This document shows, piece by piece, positions 27,455 to 40,763 of a DNA stretch of 64,000 nucleotides (position 1 is the stretch's first letter; each line of letters opens with the position of its first letter). The position numbers and the translations under genes were made by a program. Origin of the DNA: Escherichia phage HMD-P3; sequence record PQ462667.1; one strand, given 5' to 3'. Below the pieces are notes generated by a model. It worked only from the letters and a program-made list of their open reading frames with translations. It had not been told where the DNA came from and did no database searches.

Positions 27455-27467
27455 AGTATTTATTGTA

Positions 27468-27815: not shown

Positions 27816-27834
27816 TATTATTACCTCAAATGTT

Positions 27835-28120: not shown

Positions 28121-28606
28121 AATTATTTCTTCAAGTGGAGCATGAACCCACTCATTATTTCTAGATGAAAAAGAACTTAGGATTTCTTTTTCTTTGAGTT
28201 CATAATTATCTACTAGTTTATAATACTCTAATACATAGTCCCGAAAAGGGGAGTATGTTTGATAGGTATTTAATCTAGTCTCAGCATCTTTGGCTGCTCC
28301 TACTTTAAACCAGCCTGGAAAAGCTGGATTAGATATTATATAAATATATCCCAGCTTATTATTTATATTATTGATATAACAGTAAAGCTGTACTACTCTT
28401 AGGGATCTTTGATAGCTATGCTCTAGTCTCTTTTGGTATGTATTTGACTTCTTATCCTTACTAGGATTGGCCTTTCTAACTATATACCCATTATACCATA
28501 GAGCTATTTGCATGTAATTACTAGCGGTTACGTCTAGTTTGTTATTGTGGAGGAATATTTCTAACTCATTTAAGTTATCTTTTCTCCCATTTTTAGCTAT
28601 CTTCAT
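28106..28606 (-). CDS. T5orf172/GIY-YIG-like domain protein (homing-endonuclease-like)
   Basis: GYIYIISNPAFPGWFKVGAA...YQTYSPFRDY; paralog of 31392..31937. Confidence 0.65.
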   Translation of the reverse strand: MKIAKNGRKDNLNELEIFLHNNKLDVTASNYMQIALWYNGYIVRKANPSKDKKSNTYQKRLEHSYQRSLRVVQLYCYINNINNKLGYIYIISNPAFPGWFKVGAAKDAETRLNTYQTYSPFRDYVLEYYKLVDNYELKEKEILSSFSSRNNEWVHAPLEEIIACVA

Positions 28607-28624
28607 ACTACATACCCTTTAATT

Positions 28625-28700
28625 TGGTGGACAGTAGGAGAGTCGAACTCCTCACTCCTGAGTGCAAGTCAGGTATTTTCCCCAGATAAACTAACCGCCC
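28625..28700 (-). tRNA. tRNA-Ala (TGC)
   Basis: G3-U70 pair in the acceptor stem; anticodon arm cctga-ctTGCac-tcagg. Confidence 0.7.
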
Positions 28701-28985
28701 AAACTCTTTAGTTTACTAAGGCTATTAGCTCGGCGTAACTACAGCACCTTCGCTTCAAGCGGAAGGAACCGCGTCATCTCGCAAACCCGATACACTATTC
28801 AGTTGCCGCTGAATCTAGTGGACTAATCTAGAACTTCTCCCGAATCATAGGGATCGTGCTTTTTGGCAGCCAGTCCTAGGTCGAGCTAATACCTTAGTGA
28901 ACTATGATGAGGATTTCTCCTCATCAATTTATATAAATATTATAACAAGAAATTAAGCATCAAGCAACTGCATTTTTCTTGAAAT

Positions 28986-29064
28986 TGGTGGGTCGCCTGG
29001 GACTCGAACCCAGAACCTTCCGATTAAAAGTCGGATGCTACTAAACCTATTGAGCTAGCAACCC
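28986..29064 (-). tRNA. tRNA-Lys (TTT)
   Basis: Anticodon arm tccga-ctTTTaa-tcgga; T-arm ctggg-ttcgagt-cccag. Confidence 0.7.
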
Positions 29065-29073
29065 AAAATAACT

Positions 29074-29151
29074 TGGTAGCGGGTTCCAGTACTGCCCTGG
29101 ACTTACTTAGCTTATGAGACTAAGAAGAACTCTATGCCTCCCACCCGCAAT
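29074..29151 (-). tRNA. tRNA-like element, anticodon CAT, with non-canonical T-loop (GGCAGUA) and unpaired 1:72
   Basis: Anticodon arm ttagt-ctCATaa-gctaa, D-stem gagg/cttc, T-stem tccag/ctgga, CCA encoded. Confidence 0.35.
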
Positions 29152-29155
29152 TGTT

Positions 29156-29231
29156 TGGTCAGTGCGGCAGGACTCGAACCTGCGACCCGAAGCATCCAAG
29201 GCTCCCACGCTACCAACTGCGCTACGCACTG
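29156..29231 (-). tRNA. tRNA-Pro (TGG)
   Basis: 76 nt; anticodon loop ctTGGat; T-arm gcagg-ttcgagt-cctgc. Confidence 0.7.
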
Positions 29232-29240
29232 TTAATTCTT

Positions 29241-29438
29241 TTATTGTGGAGGAATATTAATAATTCGTCCATCTACACAATAAACGGTACTAGGAATCGT
29301 ACTATATATGTAGAAATTCTTTATATTACTCTCTCCGCCACAGAAATTTTTAGCAAATTCATACTCTTTATTAATGGTTGAGTCAAATTTAAAACAACCA
29401 GTAAGTAGGAATACAGATAGTAATAAAACTTTCTTCAT
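29241..29438 (-). CDS. small lipoprotein
   Basis: MKKVLLLSVFLLTGC (signal peptide with lipobox). Confidence 0.5.
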   Translation of the reverse strand: MKKVLLLSVFLLTGCFKFDSTINKEYEFAKNFCGGESNIKNFYIYSTIPSTVYCVDGRIINIPPQ

Positions 29439-29891
29439 TTAGCTTTCCTTCTCTTCACTTTATAAGATATATTATACAGAGAATTAAGCAGAATAGCAAA
29501 TGAATTTTTAATAAATTTACTTATTGTGTAGGCCACCTGGAGGCTACCAACCCCACGGCTGACAAAGAAGTTTGCGAGACCTCTCTTAAATGCCAGAATA
29601 GACCCGCCGATCTATCGGAACCTACATAATAAGTAAACTTTATAGTGTCATTCTAGACAGGACTCGAACCTGTTATCACTTGTGCGGACTTACGAGAACC
29701 ATTCTTTCACTCGAATCGAACGAGCTTCTGCCCTCGCCAAGCTGGTTTCCCCATCAACCACGCTAGAATGTTTGATTATTTTCAGTGCAAGAGTCCGAGT
29801 CTTGGACACGACCGCTTCGCAAGTACATAGGCAGCTTATCATGAGTCAGCACTTCCGAATTGCTAGCCCCGTGTTCTGCACTGAAATTTTG

Positions 29892-30239
29892 TTAATTTAA
29901 CAGTAAAGTACGATCTACTTCACCATTAATTGTTCGGCATTCTTCTGGGATCTCTGGTGTAGCCTTATATTCCCACCACTCAGAACCGTCATATTCACCA
30001 CGTTCTAACCAAGTTCCGTCAGTAAACCATACATTACCATAAAGCAATTGCCCACCATAACCAGAATCATATTTAAAGTCTAGATTATTTAGAAAATCTT
30101 CAATATCTTTTTCTGTATAACCTACGGGCAATACCCAAACTTCTTTGTCCCCATAATAACCGAATTCTATCTTAATACACTTAACTTCAGAATTAGTATT
30201 CTTTAGGGCAAGTAACAACTCTTCTTTAGCATTAATCAT
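29892..30239 (-). CDS. hypothetical protein
   Basis: 115-aa ORF. Confidence 0.5.
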   Translation of the reverse strand: MINAKEELLLALKNTNSEVKCIKIEFGYYGDKEVWVLPVGYTEKDIEDFLNNLDFKYDSGYGGQLLYGNVWFTDGTWLERGEYDGSEWWEYKATPEIPEECRTINGEVDRTLLLN

Positions 30240-30265
30240 AGCATATTTCTCGTGCTAGTTTAATT

Positions 30266-30342
30266 TGGCGCGACCGATGGGATTTGAACCCACATTCCCT
30301 CCCGTGACAGGGGAGTACCATTACCAAGCCAGCCCCGGTCGC
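30266..30342 (-). tRNA. tRNA-Asp (GTC)
   Basis: Anticodon loop ctGTCac; discriminator G. Confidence 0.7.
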
Positions 30343-30351
30343 ATAATTCAT

Positions 30352-30537
30352 TTACTCAGCTTTGAGTTTTTCAATAGCTGCATTAAGTTCCTTAAGAAAC
30401 TCTTTCCGTACATTAAGCTCTCGAATACTCATTAAAAGATCAGCCTTTCGAGCTTCAATATCTTTTTGTCGGCACTTAATGTTATTAGCTGTGTTATCAC
30501 GATGAACTTCTAACTGTGCAATTACATTCTTGGACAT
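30352..30537 (-). CDS. small coiled-coil protein
   Basis: 61-aa ORF. Confidence 0.4.
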   Translation of the reverse strand: MSKNVIAQLEVHRDNTANNIKCRQKDIEARKADLLMSIRELNVRKEFLKELNAAIEKLKAE

Positions 30538-30639
30538 GCTTGTTTCCTCAGTTATTAATGAAAATGGTATCTGTGGCTGAATTCGATGTCAGCAATGATA
30601 GCTGGTTGGCTACCGGCTTACTTAACTCTACACAGAATT

Positions 30640-30722
30640 TGGCGGGCCGTGTAGGATTCGAACCTACGTTGTCTTTCGACACGGATTAACAATCCGCCAC
30701 CAAACCGCTTGGCTAACGACCC
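30640..30722 (-). tRNA. tRNA, anticodon GTT (Asn?) with unusually long variable region
   Basis: Anticodon arm gcgga-ttGTTaa-tccgt; T-arm gtagg-ttcgaat-cctac; 83 nt. Confidence 0.5.
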
Positions 30723-30730
30723 TAAAAATT

Positions 30731-30806
30731 TGGACGACCGCATGAGATTTGAACTCACATAAAAAGGATTTGCAATCCTTCGCCTAAGCCATTCAGCCAA
30801 CGGTCG
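30731..30806 (-). tRNA. tRNA-Cys (GCA)
   Basis: Anticodon arm aagga-ttGCAaa-tcctt; discriminator U as in tRNA-Cys. Confidence 0.7.
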
Positions 30807-30875
30807 ATTTATCTTGTTCTGCCATGTTGCTTCTCCAGTTCAATTTATGTAATTATTATACAGAACTTTTGTAAA

Positions 30876-31163
30876 CTAAGCAACTACATTTTTTAAGAAT
30901 TTGATGCCTTTCTTTTTCTTCTTATATTTCCACGTTAAGGGATTCTGTCGATTATGAACGCTTGAGATCTTCGTCTCATCAAAGTTCTTCAATATCATGT
31001 AATCACAAGATAGTTGTTCTAGTGGAATGTGATCACCGTCAAAAGCATATACATAAGGCTGTTGACTAGCACGATAATGATAGACTTTGTTAATTCTACG
31101 TTTCAGCGACTTATCCGCGCAGTAAATAAAGAAATTTTCAGGATGCATCAGCAGCTCCTTCAA
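30876..31163 (-). CDS. hypothetical protein
   Basis: 95-aa ORF. Confidence 0.45.
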   Translation of the reverse strand: MKELLMHPENFFIYCADKSLKRRINKVYHYRASQQPYVYAFDGDHIPLEQLSCDYMILKNFDETKISSVHNRQNPLTWKYKKKKKGIKFLKNVVA

Positions 31164-31165
31164 AT

Positions 31166-31240
31166 TGGTGCACCCTGTTCGTATCGAACGAACCTCTCAA
31201 GCTCTTCAGGCAAGCGCTAATCCATCTCAGCTAAAGGTGC
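31166..31240 (-). tRNA. tRNA, probable Phe (GAA)
   Basis: Acceptor, D-stem and T-arm (gttcg-ttcgata-cgaac) are good; anticodon stem has two mismatches in my reading. Confidence 0.5.
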
Positions 31241-31246
31241 AAATTT

Positions 31247-31322
31247 TGGCAAACCTACTAGGACTCGAACCTAGACCGTACGGTTTTGGAGACCGACATG
31301 CTGTCCAGTAACACTCTAGGAA
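31247..31322 (-). tRNA. tRNA, probable Trp (CCA)
   Basis: Anticodon loop ctCCAaa and T-arm ctagg-ttcgagt-cctag are good; acceptor pairing poor in my reading. Confidence 0.4.
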
Positions 31323-31331
31323 TGCAGAAAT

Positions 31332-31406
31332 TGGTACACCCACGGAGAATTGAACTCCGATTCTCAGATTGAAATCCTGATGTCCTAACCATTAGACGAT
31401 AGGTGC
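31332..31406 (-). tRNA. tRNA-Glu (TTC)
   Basis: D-arm tcgtctaatggttaggaca resembles E. coli tRNA-Glu; anticodon loop atTTCaa. Confidence 0.6.
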
Positions 31407-31937
31407 ATTAACTATTTCTTTATTAACTTTCTGTACTAAATGTTCCAAGCCAGAAAGTTTATTAATTTGTTCAAATATTTTATTTAGTTTTCTCTGAGGC
31501 AACTTAACCCATTCATGGTCCCTATCTTGATAGAGGCTATGGACAAACTTTTCGCCTTCCTTTCTATCAAACCAGAAAGACCAGTGTAGCATTGTATAGT
31601 CCCTAAAAGGGCTATATGTTTGATAGTTTGCTAAGCGTTTCTTTGGGTTAGCTGACATACCAATCTTAAAATAATTGGGCCAGGCCTTATTTGCTATAAA
31701 ATATATGAAGCCTTCTTTTATGGGAAGTTTATTTTCTTGCTTAAATTTAATTAAGGATAAGCACAATAGTTTAACATTATATCTAAGATCTCCTAAGGAG
31801 ACTTTCTTAGCCTTTGTATTACTTAACTCTAAGTAAACTTTCGAGCATTCAACTATTAAATCTGGAGTTATATCAAACTCCTTAGTTTTTGTTATTATCT
31901 GTCTTTTTTGAAGCTCATTTATTAACTTATTGTGCAT
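31392..31937 (-). CDS. T5orf172/GIY-YIG-like domain protein (homing-endonuclease-like)
   Basis: GFIYFIANKAWPNYFKIGMS...YQTYSPFRDY; paralog of 28106..28606. Confidence 0.65.
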   Translation of the reverse strand: MHNKLINELQKRQIITKTKEFDITPDLIVECSKVYLELSNTKAKKVSLGDLRYNVKLLCLSLIKFKQENKLPIKEGFIYFIANKAWPNYFKIGMSANPKKRLANYQTYSPFRDYTMLHWSFWFDRKEGEKFVHSLYQDRDHEWVKLPQRKLNKIFEQINKLSGLEHLVQKVNKEIVNAPIV

Positions 31938-31955
31938 ATTACTTCCTTAGTAATT

Positions 31956-32036
31956 TGGTGGGGGATGGAGGACTCGAACCTCCGCGTGATATACCCGGTC
32001 TACAGCCAGGCGCCGTCGCCACTGAGCCAATCCCCC
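31956..32036 (-). tRNA. tRNA-Tyr (GTA)
   Basis: Acceptor gggggat; anticodon arm cctgg-ctGTAga-ccggg; long variable arm. Confidence 0.65.
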
Positions 32037-32225
32037 ATATTTGAATGAAAAGTAAGTCGGTTAAACTCAAGGTGGAATATTTCAGGATTTCCTGACTTTA
32101 CCCCTAAAGGCAACTCGCCTAATTACTTCTCATTCAGATATGTTTCCAAATTAGATAAATATTATATCAAGTTTTATAGTATTGGGCAAGTCAAATTTTA
32201 AAGAACTTGCCCAATGCTGTATTAG

Positions 32226-32501
32226 TTAGTCGAACTTAGGAGTGACAGTTAAGGAGAACGGAAGTTCAAAAACTTCTTCGCCCTCATCACTAACAGTGAT
32301 TACACGACCTTTAAGTTCAGACATTGAAATATCAATATCAGCTTTTGCATCTGGAGCCATGCCAGCTTCAACACATTTAGCTTTAATTTCCGGCAGAAGT
32401 TCTACATCGTAGAAATAAAGCCATTCAATCTCACCTTCCCAGCCTTCCCAGGATTTACAGATTGCACTTTCAATACCAGCTGCTATAACACGATTTTGCA
32501 T
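32226..32501 (-). CDS. hypothetical protein
   Basis: 91-aa ORF with promoter/leader module upstream. Confidence 0.5.
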   Translation of the reverse strand: MQNRVIAAGIESAICKSWEGWEGEIEWLYFYDVELLPEIKAKCVEAGMAPDAKADIDISMSELKGRVITVSDEGEEVFELPFSLTVTPKFD

Positions 32502-32591
32502 TCGTTAACTCCTTCATCAATTTATACAACTATTATACCAGAAATTTAAAGCAAAAGGCAAGTACATTTTTAAAAATTCTGTTTGGAGGAG

Positions 32592-32798
32592 CTAAACTCC
32601 AGATTCTTCAGCCAAGTCTAGACTAATAAGAGATATAGCCATAATTGCCGCTCCATGTTCTTTTTCTCCAGTCTCTTTAGCTAGAGTTATAATGTCAAGA
32701 AATTGCTTATGAAAATCTGCAACCTCTTGAGTTATACCTGCCTCAGCAATCATGCCTTTAAGCATGAAACGTTGTGCTGTAATTTCAGGATTAGCCAT
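32592..32798 (-). CDS. hypothetical protein
   Basis: 68-aa ORF. Confidence 0.4.
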   Translation of the reverse strand: MANPEITAQRFMLKGMIAEAGITQEVADFHKQFLDIITLAKETGEKEHGAAIMAISLISLDLAEESGV

Positions 32799-32973
32799 GT
32801 TGTTTCTCCAGTTTCATCTTTAATAATCTACAAATAAAATCAATGTCTTCATCCGTGCCTAGATCTCTGTCTTCAAGAGTTGCCTTGAAGTTTTTAGTCA
32901 ATTCCATGAGGATAACTTCCCTAGAACGACGTGTTGGCGGAGGTGGATGTCTATACATCTTATTTCCTTAATT

Positions 32974-33050
32974 TGGTAGGGGTGGTGGGATTCGAACCCA
33001 CAAAACCTGAATTTTAAGTCCAGTACCTATGCCAATTCGATTACACCCCC
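32974..33050 (-). tRNA. tRNA, anticodon TAA (Leu-UAA-like) with short variable arm
   Basis: Anticodon arm ctgga-ctTAAaa-ttcag; T-arm gtggg-ttcgaat-cccac; 77 nt. Confidence 0.5.
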
Positions 33051-33151
33051 ATGTAATCAGTTTATTAGTTGATACATATTATAGCCTAGTGAAAATCCTA
33101 CTACTAGTCCTACAAACCAACCAATATAATAATCTTTTAGTTTCACAGGTA

Positions 33152-33337
33152 TTATCCTCGTTCAATATCTAGGGAAATACCGCAGTTAGGATTAATACCT
33201 GTACCCTTGCAATTTGGGCAAACCCAGATATTGCAAAAAGTATCTCCTGCTTCTGCATCAGAACTTTCACCAATTCCCCTACACTCAGGGCAGGCACATT
33301 CTTCTAGCTCTTGCTTGAGTTCTTGAAACTTAGACAT
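33152..33337 (-). CDS. zinc-ribbon protein
   Basis: CPECRG...CPNCKG. Confidence 0.45.
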   Translation of the reverse strand: MSKFQELKQELEECACPECRGIGESSDAEAGDTFCNIWVCPNCKGTGINPNCGISLDIERG

Positions 33338-33346
33338 AAAGTCTCC

Positions 33347-33535
33347 TTAGTCAATTACTTTTGAGGCTTCAAGGTAGTCGATATAGTGTACGTTTTCTAC
33401 CGTAATCATATAATCAGCCACTTTATCCATAGCTTGGGCTTCAGAGGTAGCTCTGGCTAACCTATATCCTTTTTTATATTCATCCGGGTATTCTCTATCT
33501 TGAATAAACACAACATAAACTATATATAGATCCAT
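33347..33535 (-). CDS. hypothetical protein
   Basis: 62-aa ORF. Confidence 0.4.
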   Translation of the reverse strand: MDLYIVYVVFIQDREYPDEYKKGYRLARATSEAQAMDKVADYMITVENVHYIDYLEASKVID

Positions 33536-33553
33536 TTGTGACCTCTATTTAAT

Positions 33554-33631
33554 TGGTGGCTCCCCGAGGATTCGAACCTACGTACCTTCCGGTTATGAGC
33601 CGGGTGCTCATACCATATGAGCTTGAGAACC
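33554..33631 (-). tRNA. tRNA, anticodon CAT (Met or Ile2)
   Basis: Acceptor ggttctc/gggagcc (G-U pairs), D-stem gctc/gagc, anticodon loop ctCATaa. Confidence 0.55.
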
Positions 33632-33637
33632 AAAATC

Positions 33638-33726
33638 TGGCGGAAGAAGTGGGAATCGAACCCACAAGGCTATATTTCAAACCGACAGATTAGCAATCTG
33701 CTGCAATACCGTTATGCTATTCTTCC
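33638..33726 (-). tRNA. tRNA-Ser (GCT)
   Basis: Long variable arm; anticodon arm gcaga-ttGCTaa-tctgt; T-arm gtggg-ttcgatt-cccac. Confidence 0.65.
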
Positions 33727-33747
33727 GAATTTATAAGATATATTATA

Positions 33748-34317
33748 TTAGAAATTTAGCTTCATAGCAAGAAAATTTTTCAAGTTTTCGGTAGACATCT
33801 CATCCACATCTACAGGAGAAACAAATCCATTTAATTGTCTAGCAAACTTTTCACCAGCAGGATCGTTGTCCCCAACAGCTACTAATTTGAAAGGTAATAA
33901 TTTCAGTTGCTTTAATAACGCTTTTCCTGGAGAAGAACCCAGCATTGCCAGGGCTGGATAACCAGCATTATGTAATGCAACTGCCTTAAATACAGATTCA
34001 GCAATCAATACTACTTTTTCATCTCCATTGAGAGTTTCTAGTCCCCATACACACTGTGTAGTGGAGTAGGTAAAATATTTAGCCTCAAAGGGGCACTTAC
34101 CATGCCCTTTTGGAGCAGAAGGATTATACGTCTGATAGCCCCGCAACATCCCAGAGAAGTCATACAATGGGACTGTTAGCCACCCTTCCGGGCTTAACCA
34201 GCAATGATATTTATCTGTATCAAATCCTCTAGATAAGAGGTGCTGTGTTAGCTCATCAACATTCATATTTGGTTCCTCTCTCAAATTTATAGATATATTA
34301 TACAGAGAATTTAGCAT
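33748..34317 (-). CDS. Toprim-domain-like protein (189 aa)
   Basis: VVLIAESVFKA ... LVAVGDNDPAGEKFA matches the Toprim E...DxD layout; call by motif only. Confidence 0.45.
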   Translation of the reverse strand: MLNSLYNISINLREEPNMNVDELTQHLLSRGFDTDKYHCWLSPEGWLTVPLYDFSGMLRGYQTYNPSAPKGHGKCPFEAKYFTYSTTQCVWGLETLNGDEKVVLIAESVFKAVALHNAGYPALAMLGSSPGKALLKQLKLLPFKLVAVGDNDPAGEKFARQLNGFVSPVDVDEMSTENLKNFLAMKLNF

Positions 34318-34441
34318 TCAAGCAATCAAATTTTTTAACTTTTTAGAGGAAAATCATAGGGCACTTAAGGGTAGCAGATAAGTGGTGAGGACCAAAATTT
34401 GTGACTCCACTAAAAATCCGGGGGCAATTTTTAAAGACCCC

Positions 34442-34470
34442 TTGACATTTTTGTTGGGGTAGTGTAAAGT
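34442..34470 (+). promoter_or_regulatory. sigma70-like promoter (TTGACA-N17-TAAAGT) for the plus-strand island
   Basis: Read directly upstream of 34533; differs from the TTGCTT/TATAAT early module. Confidence 0.45.
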
Positions 34471-34532
34471 ATATGTTATGGATGAGTGATCAAAGAGACA
34501 CACATTTTCTATATACTAGGAGGTGTCAAAAA

Positions 34533-35525
34533 ATGACAGAAGAAGTAGCTAAGAGTCCTGAGACCGTCGCTAGCGTTGCAGCAGAACTGCACCGTCACGA
34601 GGAATCAGATAAGAAAAAGTGGGAGAAGGTCAGAGCCTACGAAGAAAAACATCGTGAACACGATGAAGATGATGAAGAAGATGACGATGATGAACATTGT
34701 CATAAATATGGAAAACATAAAATGCAAGAACCAGTAAACGTATTCACTAGTGGCTTCCCTGGCCTAATGGGCGGTTACCCAGCAAACGCAGGTGCTTTTG
34801 GTGGTGAAGGTATGGGTCTATTCGGAGCTATCCTAATCGGTGCTCTATTAACAGGCGGATTCGGTGGTTTCGGTGGATTCGGTGGACGTGGTGTAGTTGG
34901 TGATGGTAGCGCAGTTGATGCAGTGCTTCAGAATCAAGATACCGCTAGTATTCTAGCAGCTATTAACACTACTCGTACAGAAGCTAATCAGGGTACTGGA
35001 GCTGTTTTAAGCGCAGTTAATAATGGTTTTAGCCAGACATCCCAAAACCAGAGCCGTGATACTCAGTCTGTACTAACTACGATCTATGGTACGGGTGCTA
35101 ATCTGTCTAATCAAATCTGCCAGGAAACTCGCAACGTTATTCAGGGTCAGTTCGATCTTTCTCGCCAGATTGATCAATCTTTCGCAGCTAACCAGATAGC
35201 TCGTGCACAAGATAAGTTTGATTCTGCACAGATCGCTTTCCAGCAGACTTTACAAACTAATAACCAGTTTGCAGCTGTTCAGGCTCAGATGTGTGCTAAC
35301 CAGAACTCTCTGGAACGTCAGATCGCTGAATGTTGCTGTGAACTTCAGACTGCGATCGCTGGTGTAACTACTGCACGTATCCAGGACGAGTTAGACGCAT
35401 GTCGCCTACGTGAAGCAATCGCTGCGGGTAGTGGTGCTAACGGTCAGGTAATTAATCAAATCGCTTTAAGTCTTGGTGCTATCACTCAGACTCTGGCTGG
35501 TCTGCAGGCTAAACTGCCGGCTTAA
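34533..35525 (+). CDS. acidic N-terminus / glycine-zipper hydrophobic segment / Q,N,S,T-rich protein
   Basis: Start moved to the ATG behind taggaggtg; DEDDEEDDDDEH tract, GMGLFGAILIGALLTGGFGGFGGFGG, long polar low-complexity tail, CCCE; E. coli-like codon usage. Confidence 0.65.
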   Translation: MTEEVAKSPETVASVAAELHRHEESDKKKWEKVRAYEEKHREHDEDDEEDDDDEHCHKYGKHKMQEPVNVFTSGFPGLMGGYPANAGAFGGEGMGLFGAILIGALLTGGFGGFGGFGGRGVVGDGSAVDAVLQNQDTASILAAINTTRTEANQGTGAVLSAVNNGFSQTSQNQSRDTQSVLTTIYGTGANLSNQICQETRNVIQGQFDLSRQIDQSFAANQIARAQDKFDSAQIAFQQTLQTNNQFAAVQAQMCANQNSLERQIAECCCELQTAIAGVTTARIQDELDACRLREAIAAGSGANGQVINQIALSLGAITQTLAGLQAKLPA

Positions 35526-35546
35526 TATTAAGGGGAGGAGCCCATT

Positions 35547-35963
35547 ATGAGTAAATATGGTTTTGTAAATAACGGACTTAATCAAAGTATGGGCTCCCAG
35601 CAGCCCATTCCAGGTCTGGATAACCCCTACTTACAACAGTTGCAACAGCGTTTAGCAGAAGCGCAACAGATGCAGCAACAACTCCAGCAAAATCCTAGAA
35701 GTGTGAGTCCTATACAAATGATGCAGCAAATGAGCGGGCAGTCGCAAATGCCTCAACAAATGCAGCAACAGATGCCGCAGCAGCAAGTTCAGCAACAAAC
35801 CCAACAACCGCAGGTTTCTGCGGAAGGACAGGCAGTACTAGCCCTTTTCGAAGACTTCGCAAAGACAGAGGATGGGAAGCAGCTTGTATCACTTATGGGT
35901 AAGTTTAATAGCTTCTGCCAAAGCCAAATTGCAAAAGCTCAAAATAGCGGTGATAACTCCTAA
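35547..35963 (+). CDS. glutamine-rich protein
   Basis: Q-rich runs (QQLQQRLAEAQQMQQQLQQ, MPQQMQQQMPQQQVQQQTQQPQ); RBS aaggggagga. Confidence 0.6.
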   Translation: MSKYGFVNNGLNQSMGSQQPIPGLDNPYLQQLQQRLAEAQQMQQQLQQNPRSVSPIQMMQQMSGQSQMPQQMQQQMPQQQVQQQTQQPQVSAEGQAVLALFEDFAKTEDGKQLVSLMGKFNSFCQSQIAKAQNSGDNS

Positions 35964-35972
35964 GGAGGAATT

Positions 35973-36167
35973 ATGTGTTGCAGAAAATCTGTTTCGTGCT
36001 GCCCAATGCCTGTAGCACGTTGTTGCTCTCCAGCAATGTTTACGCAAATACCGGCGTTCAATCCGTTTGCCTTTAAGCCTACTCTTATCCTGCCCCCTAG
36101 AGTAGATTTTCAGTCAAGATTGGCCTCCCGTATGGGTGGTTGCTGTACACCGAGAGTGTGGTTCTAA
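35973..36167 (+). CDS. Cys-rich small protein
   Basis: MCCRKSVSCCPMPVARCC...GGCC; RBS aaggagga. Confidence 0.5.
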   Translation: MCCRKSVSCCPMPVARCCSPAMFTQIPAFNPFAFKPTLILPPRVDFQSRLASRMGGCCTPRVWF

Positions 36168-36180
36168 ACCAAAAAACAAA

Positions 36181-36213
36181 AGCCCCTGCCGAAAGGTAAG
36201 GGGCTTTTTCTTT
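36181..36213 (+). terminator. rho-independent terminator
   Basis: gcccct-gccgaaaggta-aggggc followed by ttttt. Confidence 0.65.
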
Positions 36214-36217
36214 TGCC

Positions 36218-36259
36218 TTAAATACAGAAAAGCCCGCGCTCTCAGAGGAAACGCGGGCT
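36218..36259 (-). terminator. rho-independent terminator (convergent)
   Basis: agcccgcg-ctctcagaggaaa-cgcgggct with a T-run on the minus strand (plus aaatacagaaa). Confidence 0.6.
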
Positions 36260-36283
36260 TGGTTAGAAGATTACGTGTAACTA

Positions 36284-37231
36284 TTACTTGTTACGCATAT
36301 CCATGATCATTTGACCATCGTAGCCAGTACCTACCACAGTCTGAGGCACACCACCTTGATACTTCTGAGCACGAATCATTTCAACTTCCAGTTGCTTCCA
36401 GCGAATCATCTCAGGAGTAATGGTACGTTGCAATGCGGCGTTAGCTTCAGCTTCTTTTTTAGCTGCGTACAGTTTAGCATCTGCGTCACGTTCATTAGCA
36501 ATAGCTTGGTTGTTGCGAGCTTCACGATCTGCTTCTGCTTGTTTAACTTTTTGCTGTGCTTCCTGTTCAACGCGGGCAAGTTCAGCTTTCGCAGCGTTAA
36601 CTTGCTCTTCACGAACTTTGGTATTCTGTACCTGTTCCATGATTACCGGTGGCAAAGTAATATCCTGAAGAAACACCTGCTTAACTGTGTAACCATATGG
36701 GCGTGCATACTCTTCAACTTCCTGTTGAATTGCAGTTTGCAATTGAGCCTGAATTTTAGCATCAAACAAATCTTGTGCTTTAGGTACAGACTTACCAAAC
36801 TCACGAATAGTAGACAGTAATTTTTCAGTTACATATTTGTCTAATGCTTGATCCTGGGTACCTGCATTAATACGGTTAATCGGTGCCTTAGAACCATCAA
36901 ACTGCAACATAACAGTCAGGTCAACAGTGGATTTAAACTTATCCTGACTAGGAACCTGAAGTTTATCTAATTTTAGAGCAATATCTTTAGTACTAAAAGT
37001 ATCGAAAGAAGCAAAAGGATTTACAATATGAAAGCCGGGTAATACTGGGCTAGGGTCAACTTTACCCAGGAAAGTCTGGGTTTTAACAGTACCGTCTTGG
37101 ACAACAGTATAAGAGTTAAGAGCCAGAACTAAACCTACCAAACCAACTGCAGCACCAATACCCCAACGTTTGATATTACGCATTAATTTTTGCTCATAAG
37201 TCAGTTCTTTAGTGTTTTTAGTAGCAAACAT
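36284..37231 (-). CDS. SPFH/band-7 (prohibitin/HflC-like) membrane protein
   Basis: N-terminal transmembrane helix WGIGAAVGLVGLVLAL, central domain, C-terminal Ala/Glu/Gln-rich coiled coil. Confidence 0.55.
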   Translation of the reverse strand: MFATKNTKELTYEQKLMRNIKRWGIGAAVGLVGLVLALNSYTVVQDGTVKTQTFLGKVDPSPVLPGFHIVNPFASFDTFSTKDIALKLDKLQVPSQDKFKSTVDLTVMLQFDGSKAPINRINAGTQDQALDKYVTEKLLSTIREFGKSVPKAQDLFDAKIQAQLQTAIQQEVEEYARPYGYTVKQVFLQDITLPPVIMEQVQNTKVREEQVNAAKAELARVEQEAQQKVKQAEADREARNNQAIANERDADAKLYAAKKEAEANAALQRTITPEMIRWKQLEVEMIRAQKYQGGVPQTVVGTGYDGQMIMDMRNK

Positions 37232-37265
37232 ATATTTCCTTTGTTTTAGTTACAGTTAATAAAAT

Positions 37266-37340
37266 TGGCCGAGGTGACAGGATTCGAACCTGCATAAAGG
37301 AATTTAGAAGACTCCTGCCTCTCCCTTAGACTACACCTCG
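37266..37340 (-). tRNA. tRNA-Arg (TCT)
   Basis: Perfect acceptor cgaggtg/cacctcg; anticodon arm ggagt-ctTCTaa-attcc. Confidence 0.6.
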
Positions 37341-37844
37341 TTTAAGTATTTTTAAGAACTCTCGTAAAAACTCTTAAAAATACAGACGATACCGGGAGAG
37401 TCATAAGTCTCACTCATTAAGTATTTCAAGACAAAATACGGTAACGTCTACTATTTTCCAGTTTAAGTCAGGGTGACTTAGTGGTTATGTCCTGCGGTAT
37501 ATTGAGGACTCGGTTAGGCTCGGGGTCATGACTTCCCGCCTTTTGCTGCTACTCAACAGGAGTTATCGCGAATTACCTGTGCTATTGTGCACCATTAGTG
37601 ACATCTCTCATGCCAGCATTTCCCACTTTGTGGATAGCTTGAAAAACTACTCCGATATGGAGAAAGAACTTCACTATCCTAGAATACCTTCTAAAGTTCT
37701 TCTTTAGCCTGGACATAGTTAAATCGTAATAAAACTATTCAGCAGACTGGTTGGTTAGTCTGGAACCAACTACCGCGTGGTTTAGGCAGTGCGCAACTAA
37801 CCTCGGAAGCTTTTACTTTAAAAGCATCAGTTATCCAGTTCTTA

Positions 37845-37920
37845 CCGACCATAGGATTCGAACCTACATCTTCCACCAGTTACGGCTTGATAATACCAAT
37901 TATACTAGGACGGCAGTGTT
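37845..37920 (-). tRNA. tRNA-like element, no encoded CCA, anticodon not resolved
   Basis: T-arm gtagg-ttcgaat-cctat and 6/7-bp acceptor found; anticodon arm not convincingly foldable by hand. Confidence 0.3.
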
Positions 37921-38174
37921 ACTACATAAGTGATTTCCACACCCCACTATTTATAAATTAGAGAAGAGTTTAGGGGAGAGGTTTCAGACGCCTCATTTTA
38001 CACGTTCTAGCCACTAACCGGGATTGCCGCCCCCTGTGTACTAGTTTTACAACTAACCCACCGACTCTATTCAATGCGCTTCGGTTGGGATTATGCATTC
38101 AGCGTAATCGGCTCGCTGTTCCCTAATTTATGAATATATTATACAGAATTTAAAGGCATTTAGCAAATAAATTT

Positions 38175-38618
38175 TTAATTAAATTCGCCAGCAATCTGAG
38201 CAGCAGTACCACCATCATAACGCCCAGGAAATTCTTCCTTAATCGCTTTCATCAGCATACCTTTTGTAATTCCAGGGTTTAGCTTAACTAATTCTGCAAA
38301 GTATTTACGAATCTCAGTATCAGATAACTGAGGAGGCAGATACTCCTGCAACCACTTATTTAGAATGTATTCATACTGAGCAGACTGCAAGCTATAGCTA
38401 TCAAGATCTTGACCATGAAGTTTAGCTTTCATCTGGTTAATGCTTTTTAGTTGAGCTTTGAGATAAGACACAAATTGTTCAGAAGTGATGAAATCTTTAT
38501 CAATACGCTGAAGATCCCCGATTATGGTCTGATAACTTTTAGCGACTTCTTTATCAGAACCATTAAACTTAGAATCCTGCAAAGCTCTACGCAAAACATC
38601 TAAAATATTCTCTTCCAT
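38175..38618 (-). CDS. hypothetical protein
   Basis: 147-aa ORF. Confidence 0.55.
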   Translation of the reverse strand: MEENILDVLRRALQDSKFNGSDKEVAKSYQTIIGDLQRIDKDFITSEQFVSYLKAQLKSINQMKAKLHGQDLDSYSLQSAQYEYILNKWLQEYLPPQLSDTEIRKYFAELVKLNPGITKGMLMKAIKEEFPGRYDGGTAAQIAGEFN

Positions 38619-38788
38619 TATTTCATTCCTAGCGCTTGGTTAAAAGATTGTTCTGTCATAACTGCTGAGACTTTGGCGAAATCAAACTTTTTAGGGTTCG
38701 TAGTGATTTCAGCAACGTTAGAAGTTTTAACAGTTTTCGTAGTACGAATACCGCGAGTGTTAACACCAATAATTACAACTGATTTCAT
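38618..38788 (-). CDS. small protein (56 aa, below the ORF-track cutoff)
   Basis: Hand translation MKSVVIIGVNTRGIRTTK...; TAATG overlap with the downstream gene; promoter/leader module upstream. Confidence 0.4.
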   Translation of the reverse strand: MKSVVIIGVNTRGIRTTKTVKTSNVAEITTNPKKFDFAKVSAVMTEQSFNQALGMK

Positions 38789-38856
38789 ACTTCGCTTCCT
38801 CTCATTAATTTATGGAAGTATTATACGGAAATTTAAGTAGTTAAGCAAGTAAATTT

Positions 38857-39324
38857 TTAAGTTTTAGTGACAACAGGTTTATAGAATGTATGTCCCTTAA
38901 TTTTAGTTGTTTTCTTAAATTTCTTTGTCCAGTAAGGTTTATCTTTACCACTATGGAAGTATAGTGCTCCATGTGTAGGATCTTGTGGTAAATCAACGTA
39001 GTATATCACTCTAGCTAAATTCTTAGCGGTTTGCCAAGCCTCATCAGTTTTATCAACTTTTGGTCTCTTAGATACCCAAGAGAACTGGTTAGACTGATAT
39101 ACTACTTTACAGTAGGAATCTGGGAATTTACCGGAGTTTACACGGTTTTTAGTAACATGTGCAATCGCCGTCATTCCCTTTATGCCCTCACCACGACTTT
39201 CGAAATAGATATTTTTAGCAATGCAATCTATTTCTTTTGCATCGTGCGATGCCTGACTACTAAAGCTGAAGGTAAGGGCAGCTACTAAAAGCAAAGCTGC
39301 CTTCATTCTTTTTACTCCTGCCAA
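38857..39324 (-). CDS. secreted cell-wall hydrolase (SleB/CwlJ Hydrolase_2-like)
   Basis: Signal peptide; NIYFESRGEGIKGMTAIAHVTKNRV ... QFSW. Confidence 0.65.
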   Translation of the reverse strand: MAGVKRMKAALLLVAALTFSFSSQASHDAKEIDCIAKNIYFESRGEGIKGMTAIAHVTKNRVNSGKFPDSYCKVVYQSNQFSWVSKRPKVDKTDEAWQTAKNLARVIYYVDLPQDPTHGALYFHSGKDKPYWTKKFKKTTKIKGHTFYKPVVTKT

Positions 39325-39629
39325 TCATATTCAACACGATTGGGATTTTCTTTATACCCTAAGTCAAGCAAATCATTACGCATATTTTGCTTAGCTACTG
39401 GGTTCGAGGTTACTAGTACCACTTTCTTTGGTCTCTGCCCAAATTCTAATAGTAAACGAAGAATTTGATAACCTTCCATACCATCTACAGCCAAGTCATT
39501 ATCCATATAAACGAAATGGCCTGTGGTATCAGTTTTATTCAGAAACTCTACAGCGGCTTCTGGGGTTCGAATGATAATGTCCATTCCGTGAAGATTACGC
39601 ACATCATCAATCAAAATATGAAAAGTCAT
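39312..39629 (-). CDS. hypothetical protein
   Basis: 105-aa ORF with promoter/leader module upstream. Confidence 0.5.
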   Translation of the reverse strand: MTFHILIDDVRNLHGMDIIIRTPEAAVEFLNKTDTTGHFVYMDNDLAVDGMEGYQILRLLLEFGQRPKKVVLVTSNPVAKQNMRNDLLDLGYKENPNRVEYDWQE

Positions 39630-40071
39630 AATAGCCTCGTTTCATCAATTTAAAAATATATTATACATATAATTTAGTAGATTAGCAAATACATTTTTAA
39701 ATTGTGAAACTAGTAAACCGATAAACAGCCTAGAGGCGCCACAGGCCATACCTTATGAGCCATGTACCTTTGATCTAGGGTTTTAATCATCAACGAATAC
39801 TTTGCATCTTTTAGCTTTAGAAGTTTAGAAGTTTGAGTTCTTTAAACTTTTCAGCTTTCATACTTAAATGTTGATCTTTGAAGTTGTGTCGGTAATATCA
39901 ACGACGCTTTGTTTTTACGTGTCAGCTTAAAAGGCTGGTGTAATAAACATAATCTCCAATAGATTATACTTTATAGTATGGTCAGCGGTCCTATTTAACC
40001 TCGTATTTCAACCGCTGCTGCGAGGTAAGATGCTTGGGCTTTCGTCTACCGATTTACTAGCTTTTAAATTA

Positions 40072-40710
40072 TTACTCTACTTCAATGAAGGTAGAGGCGT
40101 TAGACTCGGACAGAACAAAGTCAACATTTGTTGCAAAGTCCTGATATTCCTCGTCATGCTGCTTAATCAGCTTTTCCAGTTCCAGCGGATCAATCAAGAA
40201 TGGAGTATTCTTGAGTTCCAGCAGGTTGAGCTGCATTTTAACTTCATCTTCGGAAGTTTTCTTATCGCGAGTAGCCATGCTATCCTGCAAACGCTCATAT
40301 TTAGCATCAAACTGTGCTTTCTGCGTATTAAACTTAACCGTAGCGGCATGGAACTGCTTACGCATGTTAGCAAGCAGTTGAGCTTTAAGTTCCATAGAAC
40401 GCTTAGCTTCAATTGCTTCCGCAACAGTCATCTTACGAGAGCCAATCTCAACGATTGTTTCTGCATTGCTCTTAATCAGAGCAGATTTGATACTATCACG
40501 CTTAGACATCATATCCAGCAGAGACTGGAAATCAGTCTTAATACGAGTAGACAGATCGGCTACTTCGATTGCAGCGCCAACTACAACCTGGTTTTTATCC
40601 TTACCTTCACCAACAGCGATCAGAAGCTGCTGTTCAGTAGCTTTACGGATTTTAGCTTCCAGAGATTTGATAGTTGCCAGAGCACGAGTTTTAGAAATAC
40701 GAGTAGTCAT
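40072..40710 (-). CDS. hypothetical coiled-coil protein
   Basis: 212-aa ORF. Confidence 0.55.
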   Translation of the reverse strand: MTTRISKTRALATIKSLEAKIRKATEQQLLIAVGEGKDKNQVVVGAAIEVADLSTRIKTDFQSLLDMMSKRDSIKSALIKSNAETIVEIGSRKMTVAEAIEAKRSMELKAQLLANMRKQFHAATVKFNTQKAQFDAKYERLQDSMATRDKKTSEDEVKMQLNLLELKNTPFLIDPLELEKLIKQHDEEYQDFATNVDFVLSESNASTFIEVE

Positions 40711-40763
40711 TATTTGCTTCCTTATATGAAGTTTGAGATTTGAATTTGTTTGAATTTGGTCTA

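What the first reader, a model, noticed from the sequence alone, without database searches (positions are those of the whole stretch)
36284..37231. Phage-encoded SPFH/band-7 membrane protein convergent with the island
The product has an N-terminal transmembrane anchor, a central domain and a long Ala/Glu/Gln-rich coiled coil, the layout of HflK/C, stomatin and prohibitin-like scaffolds. Such proteins regulate membrane proteases or organise microdomains, so a phage copy could modulate host FtsH/HflKC or protect against abortive infection. The call is by architecture.
Basis: partly seen in the sequence, partly recalled or inferred. Interest (0 to 1): 0.5.

Follow-up and report, generated by a model that had tools for sequence, protein, structure and literature searches.

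The report
T5.080-type phage SPFH membrane scaffold
This gene is the already-catalogued T5.080 protein of T5-like phages, a genuine SPFH/band-7 membrane scaffold that probably builds a ring or cage on the periplasmic face of the host inner membrane; it is dispensable in the laboratory and its role in infection has never been tested.

Summary
ORF 36284-37231 (-) encodes a 315-aa protein with one N-terminal TM helix, an SPFH core and a 76-residue Ala/Glu/Gln-rich helix. It scores 63.9 bits on Pfam Band_7 (cut-off 23.6). Its AF2 model (pLDDT 80.6) matches erlin, prohibitin, HflK/C, stomatin and QmcA cage subunits over the full length.

The window is a T5-like phage and the gene is the ortholog of T5.080. 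Identical proteins are already deposited, some labelled "SPFH/band 7" and many mislabelled "lipoprotein" (there is no cysteine).

What this work adds:
- Charge bias, plus distant relatives that carry lipoprotein signal peptides instead of the TM helix, point to a periplasm-facing domain, as in HflK/C.
- No NfeD, protease, ATPase or second SPFH paralog accompanies it in phages or in bacterial chromosomal relatives.
- It lies inside the deletion of the viable T5 st0 mutant, so it is accessory.
- It has spread between T5-, T4-, FelixO1- and N4-like virulent phages, with up to 83% identity across families.
- No similar DNA was found in 5,426 E. coli genomes.
- It is transcribed behind RNAX and tRNA-Arg and ends at twin terminators shared with the convergent T5.077-079 genes.

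The FtsH and abortive-infection ideas remain untested. This is a known gene with low-to-moderate interest.

The parts
38138..38166 (-). Sigma-70-type promoter (TTGCTA-17-TATAAT) at the position of T5 promoter 'P 16-17'. It is the likely start of the transcription unit RNAX, tRNA-Arg, SPFH gene.
   Evidence: The consensus scan gives 10 of 12 matches. T5 annotates promoter P 16-17 at the same place, overlapping the end of T5.081. Function here is inferred, not shown.
37341..38130 (-). Non-coding 'RNAX' stretch between the promoter and tRNA-Arg. It contains a second tRNA-like element at 37843-37914.
   Evidence: T5 and DT57C annotate RNAX as 'stable RNA with unknown functions' at the syntenic position. 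Rfam tRNA scores 33.7 bits against a gathering score of 29 at 37843-37914. ARAGORN did not report it.
37266..37340 (-). tRNA-Arg(UCU), which ends 34 nt upstream of the SPFH start codon on the same strand.
   Evidence: ARAGORN. Rfam tRNA 51.2 bits. The arrangement is the same in T5 and DT57C.
37237..37241 (-). Ribosome-binding site AAGGA, 5 nt before the ATG.
   Evidence: Read directly from the sequence.
36284..37231 (-). CDS for the 315-aa SPFH/band-7 protein, ortholog of T5.080 (stop codon included).
   Evidence: ORF list. Pfam Band_7 63.9 bits. phrog_200 E 1.5e-85. 95% identical to T5.080 and to DT57C_000058. 100% identical to proteins of phages ABTNLsp4 and vB_CfrD-Cit2.
37103..37165 (-). 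Codons for the N-terminal transmembrane anchor (about residues 23-43). The preceding residues 1-22 are K/R-rich and predicted to be cytoplasmic.
   Evidence: Hydropathy and flank charges: 6 K+R in the N flank (net +5) against net +1 in the C flank. AF2 helix 12-38.
36656..37111 (-). Codons for the SPFH1/SPFH2 alpha/beta core (residues 41-192).
   Evidence: AF2 secondary structure with pLDDT 80-91. Pfam match to residues 52-225. Foldseek hits to SPFH domains of stomatin, erlin, PHB and HflK/C.
36422..36649 (-). Codons for CC1, a single 76-residue Ala/Glu/Gln-rich helix (residues 195-270). This is the 'wall' element of SPFH cages.
   Evidence: AF2 helix 195-270. Composition. It aligns with the CC1 helices of solved cages. 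CC1 is described in PMC12624060.
36287..36415 (-). Codons for CC2 (residues 273-290) and the conserved C-terminal tail (291-315, motif Y.G.VPQTVVG..Y.G..IMD.R.K). This is the 'cap' region of SPFH cages.
   Evidence: AF2 helix 273-290; the tail is low confidence, pLDDT below 50. The tail motif is conserved across 27 family members.
36230..36260 (-). First hairpin after the stop codon (12-bp stem, then a U-rich run). It contains A|GCGC at 36240/36239, the same offset from the stop codon as T5's annotated major single-strand nick.
   Evidence: Terminator scan. The RNA fold of 36165-36283 has z -4.17. T5 annotation of the 'major DNA single-chain interruption'. Sequence read directly.
36171..36216 (.). 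Second hairpin with U-runs on both strands. It is a bidirectional terminator shared with the convergent T5.077-079-like operon.
   Evidence: Folds on both strands, z -4.17 and -3.84. T5 annotates an 'efficient bidirectional rho-independent transcription terminator' at the syntenic position.

Best explanation
The gene encodes the T5.080-type SPFH (band-7) protein of T5-like phages. It is made from an early-region transcription unit (promoter, RNAX, tRNA-Arg, SPFH gene, twin terminators). The protein inserts into the host inner membrane through one N-terminal helix. Its short basic N-terminus stays in the cytoplasm, and its SPFH1/2 core, CC1 wall helix, CC2 and C-terminal tail lie in the periplasm. 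By analogy with every solved SPFH protein of this layout (HflK/C, prohibitin, erlin, QmcA, stomatin, flotillin), it should self-assemble side by side into a closed ring or dome. With no second paralog, this would be a homo-oligomer. The ring would fence off a patch of inner membrane and whatever membrane proteins sit in it. The fenced client is unknown. The precedent for exoplasm-facing SPFH cages is control of membrane-protein turnover. The gene is an accessory fitness function, not part of the core lytic programme. Shown here: family membership, domain layout, absence of a lipobox, absence of a linked partner, dispensability in T5 st0, and spread between phage families. Inferred: periplasmic orientation, oligomeric cage, early expression. 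Speculative: the client and the benefit to the phage.
For: Family and fold:
- Pfam Band_7 63.9 bits against a cut-off of 23.6.
- AF2 model with pLDDT 80.6, ordered TM, alpha/beta core, 76-residue helix, short helix, tail.
- Full-length Foldseek matches at probability 1.0 to erlin1/2, PHB1/2, HflK/C, stomatin, QmcA and flotillin subunits, E 1e-14 to 1e-8.
- This is the same domain order as described for erlin and PHB in PMC12624060.

Orientation:
- All 27 aligned family members have a K/R-rich N flank (net +1 to +6) and a near-neutral C flank.
- Among 109 wider representatives with a clear TM, the N flank is more positive in 74 and the C flank in 24.
- Six to eight distant members replace the TM with a lipoprotein signal peptide (LLGAC|S, LLGSC|S, LITSC|T) directly before the conserved SPFH start, so the domain is exported in those proteins.

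Homo-oligomer without a partner:
- The gene is single-copy, and none of the ten nearest ORFs scanned (33152-40710) has an NfeD, protease or second SPFH match.
- Bacterial chromosomal relatives have no conserved partner either.

Accessory role:
- The T5 st0 deletion removes wild-type T5 33.68-41.88 kb, including T5.080.
- T5st0 is routinely propagated on E. coli F (10.1101/2022.09.22.509047).
- DT57C keeps the gene but lacks the neighbouring island.

Selection and mobility:
- 83% amino-acid identity between T5-like siphoviruses and Slopekvirus/Karamvirus myoviruses.
- No similar DNA in 5,426 complete E. coli genomes.

Transcription unit.
Against: - No oligomer could be modelled or observed here. 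The cage is inferred from homologs that share only 15-20% identity.
- The best sequence-level match among solved structures is QmcA (E 1.9e-6). From my own knowledge (Chiba, Ito & Akiyama 2006, Mol Microbiol), QmcA faces the cytoplasm.
- The charge bias is reversed in 24 of 109 representatives.
- The topology rests on the positive-inside rule and on distant lipoprotein-type relatives, not on an experiment or a dedicated predictor.
- The model's pTM is only 0.49 and the C-terminal tail is low confidence.
- Early expression is inferred from gene position and T5's annotated promoter, not measured.
- Nothing here identifies a client or a phenotype.
Confidence: 0.6

Rival explanations
1. Viral HflK/C mimic. 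The phage cage captures host FtsH hexamers through their periplasmic domains, or intercalates into or displaces HflK/C. This would re-tune FtsH proteolysis of membrane or regulatory proteins during infection.
For: The predicted N-in/C-out orientation is the one shared by HflK/C and prohibitin. Both of those enclose AAA proteases (PMC12048511 and PMC13376388, listed). HflK/C chains are full-length structural matches, E 2e-12 to 1e-8. The family profile detects HflC weakly, E 2.4e-3.
Against: There is no specific similarity to HflK/C beyond the generic SPFH fold. HflK is not detected by sequence, and HflC scores only 20 bits. The protein is a single gene, not a K/C pair. No protease-related gene is linked to it in any phage or bacterial context examined. 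The carriers identified belong to virulent phage groups, so the classical FtsH/HflKC target (lambda CII/CIII) is irrelevant. Loss of the gene in T5 st0 gives no gross defect.
Confidence: 0.15
2. Membrane-integrity or lysis-timing factor. The scaffold stabilises the inner membrane or its proton motive force after DNA entry and during late infection, or it helps restrain holin triggering, so that lysis is not premature.
For: In T4-like phages the gene always lies in the tk to rI region, within 0.2-3 kb of the antiholin gene rI (PF24205) and DUF5856. In T5-like phages it lies 1.6 kb from a signal-peptide-bearing SleB-type cell-wall hydrolase. SPFH proteins are general membrane organisers (PMC12624060).
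Against: The tk-rI region varies in gene content among the three T4-like genomes compared and, from my own knowledge, is a recognised plasticity hot spot, so adjacency may be positional only. T4 itself has rI but no SPFH gene (own knowledge). The FelixO1-like and N4-like contexts show no lysis genes nearby. There is no direct evidence.
Confidence: 0.12
3. Superinfection exclusion or inter-phage competition. The periplasm-facing cage sequesters or shields inner-membrane components that other phages need for DNA entry, or it blocks incoming tail tips.
For: The gene is accessory, apparently early-expressed, envelope-located and horizontally mobile among virulent phages that share enterobacterial hosts. 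This is the profile of known exclusion genes such as T4 imm/sp and T5 llp (own knowledge).
Against: No similarity to any known exclusion protein, and no PADLOC hit. Purely circumstantial.
Confidence: 0.08
4. Cytoplasm-facing stomatin/QmcA-like scaffold. The N-terminal helix is N-out, and the cage sits on the cytoplasmic face of the membrane.
For: QmcA is the top sequence hit among solved structures, E 1.9e-6. The charge bias is reversed in 24 of 109 representatives.
Against: The window protein has six K/R residues before the TM and a near-neutral C flank, and all 27 close relatives behave likewise. Relatives with lipoprotein signal peptides must be exported. No NfeD partner is present, unlike QmcA-YbbJ (PDB 8z5g title).
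Confidence: 0.1
5. Lipoprotein, as annotated in RefSeq T5, KP15, Aeh1 and PHROG 200.
For: The annotation label. A few distant family members do carry lipoboxes.
Against: The protein, T5.080 and 24 of the 27 aligned relatives contain no cysteine at all, so lipid modification at a lipobox Cys is impossible.
Confidence: 0.01

Closest known systems
Phage T5 ORF T5.080 (YP_006908; T5p078-type) and its orthologs in Demerecviridae
   Same: 95% identical over all 315 residues, with the same flanks: promoter P16-17, RNAX, tRNA-Arg upstream; nick site, bidirectional terminator and T5.077-079 downstream. Proteins 100% identical to the window's are deposited for phages ABTNLsp4 and vB_CfrD-Cit2.
   Different: Nothing material. 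The annotations differ ('lipoprotein', 'putative membrane protein/protease', 'SPFH domain / band 7 family protein', 'hypothetical'), and none is backed by an experiment that I could find.
E. coli HflK/HflC (FtsH-modulating periplasmic SPFH cage)
   Same: N-terminal TM anchor with a predicted N-in/C-out orientation. The same order of SPFH core, long CC1, CC2 and C-terminal cap. Full-length structural match.
   Different: One gene instead of an HflK/HflC pair. Sequence relation is only at superfamily level (HflC 20 bits, HflK undetected). The phage protein is shorter than the 334-residue HflC chain. No evidence of FtsH binding.
Prohibitin 1/2 and erlin 1/2 (organellar exoplasm-facing SPFH cages)
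   Same: These are the top structural matches, E 1e-14 to 1e-12, about 300 aligned columns. Identical domain order with an N-terminal TM helix and the domain on the non-cytosolic side (PMC12624060). PHB2 and PHB1 are the second and third best sequence hits in the PDB. Some GenBank records already name the phage protein 'prohibitin family/PHB domain'.
   Different: They are eukaryotic hetero-oligomers of two paralogs. Identity is 16-20%. Erlin's CC1 has 101 residues against 76 here.
E. coli QmcA-YbbJ (SPFH-NfeD complex, PDB 8z5g)
   Same: Best sequence-level hit among solved structures, E 1.9e-6 over residues 40-266. It is a homo-oligomeric ring (26 chains in the entry).
   Different: QmcA faces the cytoplasm (own knowledge: Chiba et al. 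2006) and works with an NfeD partner encoded next to it. Here the predicted orientation is opposite, and no NfeD-like gene is among the neighbours.
Chromosomal SPFH genes of Providencia/Morganella and of methylotrophic Gammaproteobacteria
   Same: They belong to the same subfamily: 58-61% identity for Providencia/Morganella and 37-40% for Methylococcaceae/Methylophagaceae. They have the same length and architecture.
   Different: They are chromosomal, in housekeeping contexts that are stable within each taxon (accD-folC, an Ndh-type oxidoreductase, a racemase). In an unbootstrapped NJ tree the Morganellaceae copies nest inside the phage-type clade, which suggests exchange with phages.

Membership tests
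SPFH / Band 7 superfamily (Pfam PF01145) | Significant match to the Band_7 profile above the curated gathering score | tested here: met
   63.9 bits against 23.6, E 2.5e-17, residues 52-225 covering profile positions 13-176 of 176. All listed homologs carry PF01145.
SPFH / Band 7 superfamily (Pfam PF01145) | Alpha/beta SPFH fold | tested here: met
   AF2 core residues 41-192 at pLDDT 80-91. Foldseek matches isolated SPFH domains of mouse stomatin (4fvj, rmsd 2.4-3.6 A) and P. horikoshii stomatin 3bk6.
Cage-forming SPFH proteins (HflK/C, PHB, erlin, stomatin, flotillin, QmcA) | Domain order: membrane anchor, SPFH1/2, long CC1 helix, CC2, C-terminal cap | tested here: met
   Model elements H12-38, strands/helices 41-192, H195-270, H273-290 and tail 291-315. 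About 260-310 aligned columns against solved cage subunits. The layout is defined in PMC12624060.
Cage-forming SPFH proteins (HflK/C, PHB, erlin, stomatin, flotillin, QmcA) | Assembly into a closed ring or dome of many subunits | not testable with these tools
   Only monomer prediction is available. This needs multimer modelling or EM.
HflK/HflC | Two paralogous subunits encoded side by side that alternate in the ring | tested here: not met
   There is a single SPFH gene. None of the ten nearest ORFs scanned (33152-40710) has a Band_7 match. The same is true in the T4-like, FelixO1-like and N4-like contexts.
HflK/HflC | N-in/C-out topology with the SPFH domain in the periplasm | tested here: met
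   This is a prediction only. The positive-inside bias holds in 27 of 27 close relatives and in 74 against 24 wider relatives. Relatives with lipoprotein signal peptides exist.
HflK/HflC | Specific sequence relationship to HflK or HflC | tested here: not met
   HflC is detected only by the family profile, at 20 bits and E 2.4e-3. HflK is not detected. No NCBIfam model matches.
HflK/HflC | Binds and modulates FtsH | not testable with these tools
   Needs pull-down, crosslinking or complex modelling.
Stomatin/QmcA-NfeD operon pairs | Adjacent NfeD-family partner gene | tested here: not met
   Pfam scan of the ten nearest ORFs finds Toprim, YqeY, DUF7616, a SleB hydrolase and cREC_REC, but no NfeD. 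The bacterial relatives have none either. The rest of the window was not scanned.
Bacterial lipoproteins (the label given by RefSeq and PHROG 200) | Signal peptide ending in a lipobox with an invariant Cys | tested here: not met
   The protein has zero cysteines. T5.080 and 24 of the 27 relatives also have none.
Known anti-phage defence system components (PADLOC-DB) | Match to a defence-system protein model | tested here: not met
   No PADLOC family at E<=0.01.

The most novel reading that the evidence does not exclude
A single-gene viral counterpart of HflK/C. Virulent phages of several unrelated lineages pass around a homo-oligomeric, periplasm-facing SPFH cage that their E. coli hosts lack. 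They deploy it early in infection to corral a specific host inner-membrane machine, either FtsH or a phage-entry or defence component. This would make it a new class of host-takeover or anti-competitor factor acting through membrane compartmentalisation.
Probability: 0.15. Interest if true: 0.65.

Novelty: already known. Interest (0 to 1): 0.3.

Why it matters
[quoted passage not shown] What they fence in, and why, is still debated. Phage copies have been noticed in genome papers since 2006 but never studied. A small, single-gene, dispensable, strongly conserved viral SPFH protein that moves between T5-, T4-, FelixO1- and N4-like phages would be a convenient minimal system for asking what an SPFH cage does. 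It could also reveal a host inner-membrane process that virulent phages need to control. As it stands, the finding is a correct annotation of a known gene. The useful outputs are the corrected label (not a lipoprotein), the predicted periplasmic orientation and a short list of decisive experiments.

Tried and rejected
1. NfeD or protease partner. A Pfam scan of the ten ORFs nearest the gene found none.
2. Defence or anti-defence identity. No PADLOC hit and no NCBIfam hit.
3. Lipoprotein annotation. Rejected because the protein has no Cys.
4. Conserved partner from bacterial relatives. 61 genome loci were retrieved. I clustered the neighbours of 18 of them and Pfam-scanned ten neighbour families. 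Only taxon-specific housekeeping genes and a generic ABC-F ATPase recur.
5. AAA-ATPase link. FelixO1-like phage SE131 has a PF00004-type ATPase directly upstream of its SPFH gene. That ATPase is soluble and matches p97 only weakly. It is unrelated to the MoxR-like ATPase near the Vibrio N4-like phage's copy, and neither has a homolog in the window. Rejected as a conserved partner.
6. Host copies. A blastn 'distant' search of 5,426 complete E. coli genomes found nothing.
7. Literature. Searches on SPFH with bacteriophage T5, phage-encoded, anti-phage, superinfection exclusion and T5-like, and on T5.080, returned only genome-description papers stating that the function is unknown.
8. Weak Rfam hits over 36174-36263 (anti-hemB, ctRNA, Bp2_287). 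All are far below their gathering scores and simply reflect the terminator hairpins.
Full report
**Observation**

The ORF list shows an ATG-started reading frame of 315 codons at exactly 36284..37231 on the - strand. An AAGGA ribosome-binding site lies 5 nt before the ATG.

- One N-terminal hydrophobic segment at residues ~23-43, with no second one anywhere in the protein.
- A central globular domain.
- A helical region, 195-290, that is 45.8% Ala+Glu+Gln against 19.1% in the first 194 residues, with no glycine and one proline in 195-270.

The + strand ORFs 34473-35525, 35547-35963 and 35973-36167 do converge on the gene.

**Family test**

- The hit is present: Band_7 at 63.9 bits against a gathering score of 23.6, E 2.5e-17, residues 52-225.
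- PHROGs places the protein in phrog_200 (E 1.5e-85), whose label is 'lipoprotein'.
- NCBIfam and PADLOC give nothing.
- Among solved structures the best sequence matches are QmcA (E 1.9e-6), prohibitin-2 and prohibitin-1. HflC appears only weakly, and only with a family profile.

**Structure**

An AF2 model built on a 27-sequence family alignment has mean pLDDT 80.6. Its elements are:

| Element | Residues |
|---|---|
| TM helix | 12-38 |
| Alpha/beta core | 41-192 |
| Long uninterrupted helix | 195-270 |
| Short helix | 273-290 |
| Low-confidence C-terminal hairpin | 300-310 |

- Foldseek against the PDB returns, at probability 1.0 and over ~260-310 aligned columns, the subunits of erlin1/2, prohibitin1/2, HflK/C, stomatin, QmcA and flotillin, with major vault protein further down (E 1e-14 to 1e-6).
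- The order TM, SPFH1/2, CC1, CC2, C-terminal region is the one described for erlin and prohibitin cages. In those cages the CC1 helices form the wall and CC2 plus the tail form the cap (PMC12624060).
- TM-scores are only ~0.5 and rmsd values are large. The relative angle of the long helix differs between a free monomer model and subunits packed in a cage.

**Which phage and which gene**

- The region is 98% identical to Salmonella phage GSP044 and 97% to Spc35 and many other T5-like phages.
- tblastn finds the protein in 723 phage records, with 100% identical copies in phages ABTNLsp4 and vB_CfrD-Cit2.
- In DT57C it is annotated as the homolog of 'T5.080, putative membrane protease'.
- In RefSeq T5 it is T5.080, 'lipoprotein ... 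contains single transmembrane domain', 95% identical to the window protein.
- Several GenBank records already call it 'SPFH domain / band 7 family protein'.
- SPFH domains were tabulated for T4-like phages 44RR, Aeh1 and RB43 in 2006 (PMC1524935).
- Later genome papers repeat that the function in phages is unknown (PMC7760394 and PMC13239085).
- BFVD shows the fold in many other phages and giant viruses.

The identification is therefore correct but not new.

**Not a lipoprotein**

The protein has no cysteine. T5.080 and 24 of the 27 aligned relatives also have none. The label is wrong for this protein.

It probably arose because some distant members really do carry lipoprotein signal peptides. 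Examples are ...ALLGAC|S...LLGSC|S and ...LITSC|T, each immediately before the conserved start of the SPFH domain.

**Topology**

Those lipoprotein-type relatives are informative, because their SPFH domain must be exported.

The charge distribution points the same way:
- All 27 close relatives have a K/R-rich N flank (net +1 to +6) and a near-neutral C flank.
- Among 109 wider representatives with a clear TM, the N flank is more positive in 74, the C flank in 24, and 11 are tied.

I therefore predict N-in/C-out, with the domain facing the periplasm. That is the orientation of HflK/C, and of prohibitin and erlin in their compartments. From my own knowledge it is the opposite of QmcA (Chiba et al. 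2006). This is an inference, not a measurement.

**Search for partners**

In the window, the ten nearest ORFs carry the following:
- Toprim (T5.076)
- YqeY
- DUF7616
- a SleB-type hydrolase with a signal peptide
- a cREC_REC domain
- otherwise no confident Pfam match (two sub-threshold zinc-finger hits in the 61-aa ORF)

There is no NfeD, no protease and no second SPFH gene.

Other phage contexts gave these results:
- **T4-like phages:** the gene always sits in the tk to rI stretch, next to or within 3 kb of the antiholin rI (PF24205) and DUF5856 (KP15, RB43, Aeromonas phage 60AhydR15PP). That region varies in gene content among these three genomes.
- **FelixO1-like SE131:** a soluble AAA-type ATPase lies directly upstream.
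- **Vibrio N4-like phage:** a MoxR-like ATPase lies three genes upstream.
- The two ATPases are unrelated to each other and have no homolog in this window, so I rejected this lead.

**Bacterial relatives**

- A scan of one genome per species found chromosomal members. Every Providencia and Morganella entry retrieved has one at 55-60% identity (58-61% in the trimmed alignment). Methylococcaceae, Methylophagaceae and other Gammaproteobacteria have members at 33-41%.
- Their neighbourhoods are conserved within each taxon but not between taxa, and they are housekeeping: accD-folC, an Ndh-type flavoprotein, an Asp/Glu racemase, a bestrophin-like protein.
- In an unbootstrapped NJ tree the Morganellaceae copies nest within the phage-type clade.
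- No similar DNA exists in 5,426 complete E. coli genomes. The phage therefore brings a subtype of SPFH protein that this host species lacks.

**Mobility**

Identity reaches 83% between T5-like siphoviruses and Slopekvirus/Karamvirus myoviruses. It is ~74% to a FelixO1-like phage and ~63% to Aeromonas T4-likes. Unrelated phage families that share enterobacterial hosts are exchanging the gene. The carriers identified belong to virulent phage groups.

**Dispensability**

- Aligning the T5 st0 record with wild-type T5 shows a single deletion of wild-type coordinates ~33.68-41.88 kb. T5.080 lies at 39,791-40,738, inside that interval.
- tblastn finds no copy in the st0 locus.
- T5st0 is a standard laboratory phage grown on E. 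coli F (10.1101/2022.09.22.509047).

The gene is therefore an accessory function under laboratory conditions.

**Transcription unit**

- A TTGCTA-17-TATAAT promoter at 38166-38138 coincides with T5 promoter P16-17.
- Next comes the 'RNAX' stretch, which contains a tRNA-like element at 37843-37914.
- tRNA-Arg(UCU) follows at 37266-37340, and then the SPFH gene.
- Two hairpins follow the stop codon, and their fold has z -4.17.
- The first hairpin (36230-36260) contains A|GCGC at the offset where T5 annotates a major single-strand nick.
- The second hairpin (about 36171-36216) has U-runs on both strands. It corresponds to T5's 'efficient bidirectional terminator', shared with the convergent T5.077-079 genes.

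**Mechanism**

The best-supported account is as follows. The protein is made early and sits in the inner membrane, facing the periplasm. It assembles through its SPFH2, CC1 and CC2 contacts into a homo-oligomeric ring or dome. That ring isolates a patch of inner membrane together with its resident proteins.

My confidence in each step:

| Claim | Confidence |
|---|---|
| Member of the SPFH family | >0.95 |
| Forms a cage-type oligomer | ~0.75 |
| Faces the periplasm | ~0.65-0.7 |
| Accessory role | ~0.9 |
| FtsH is the fenced client | ~0.15 |

Membrane stabilisation or lysis timing, and superinfection exclusion, are comparably weak alternatives for the client question.

**Verdict**

The functional speculation is reasonable but unsupported. 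The gene is already catalogued. Interest is modest, and it lies in the open question of why virulent phages trade a periplasm-facing SPFH scaffold.

Noticed in passing
window 37843-37914 (-), within 37341-38130: A second tRNA-like element (Rfam tRNA 33.7 bits, above the gathering score of 29) lies inside the non-coding 'RNAX' stretch between the promoter and tRNA-Arg. ARAGORN did not report it. T5 and DT57C annotate RNAX only as 'stable RNA with unknown functions'.
   Followed up: partly
window 36239-36240 (-), in hairpin 36230-36260: The motif A|GCGC sits 44-45 nt after the SPFH stop codon. That is the same offset at which T5 annotates a 'major DNA single-chain interruption' (consensus Pu|GCGC). 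The site lies in the 3' arm of a terminator-like hairpin.
   Followed up: partly
window 34473-36167 (+): The convergent 'island' consists of three genes. The first encodes 350 aa with an acidic/His-rich N-terminus, a Gly-rich hydrophobic stretch (GGFGGFGGFGG) and a Q/N/T-rich C-terminal half (phrog_8119). The second encodes a 138-aa Gln-rich protein (phrog_7894). The third encodes a 64-aa peptide with nine cysteines, eight of them as four CC doublets. They occupy the position of T5.077-T5.079 in T5; the second and third match T5.078 and T5.079 exactly in length, and orthology was not tested by alignment. They have no Pfam match, are absent from DT57C, and sit in a local G+C rise (0.44 against about 0.38). 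Function unknown.
   Followed up: partly
window 38857-39324 (-): A SleB-type cell-wall hydrolase (PF07486, 89.5 bits) carries an apparent Sec signal peptide (MKAALLLVAALTFSFSSQASHD). It is encoded in the early region, 1.6 kb upstream of the SPFH gene. It would be a periplasmic peptidoglycan hydrolase.
   Followed up: no
window 39312-39629 (-): A small ORF (105 aa) matches the cREC_REC 'cyclic-phosphate processing receiver' domain (PF20274, 56.8 bits). It is the T5.084 ortholog.
   Followed up: no
L070 3707-4915 (Salmonella phage SE131, FelixO1-like): A soluble AAA-type ATPase (PF00004 33.4 bits, plus weak nSTAND matches) lies directly upstream of that phage's SPFH gene. It is not conserved next to SPFH genes in other lineages.
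   Followed up: yes
L002, L068, L069 (KP15, RB43, Aeromonas phage 60AhydR15PP): In T4-like phages the SPFH gene is always placed between tk and the antiholin rI/DUF5856 pair. In KP15 and RB43 it sits directly after that pair.
   Followed up: partly
L006-L018 (Providencia and Morganella chromosomes): Every Providencia and Morganella species genome retrieved has a chromosomal copy of this phage-type SPFH gene (55-60% identity by tblastn). The copies sit at different loci in the two genera and nest within the phage clade in an NJ tree. This suggests capture from, or donation to, phages.
   Followed up: partly
window 24757-33726 (-): A dense array of 21 tRNA genes lies on the - strand upstream of the Toprim gene, typical of the T5 tRNA region. 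It falls in the region where T5 deletions such as st0 are tolerated.
   Followed up: no
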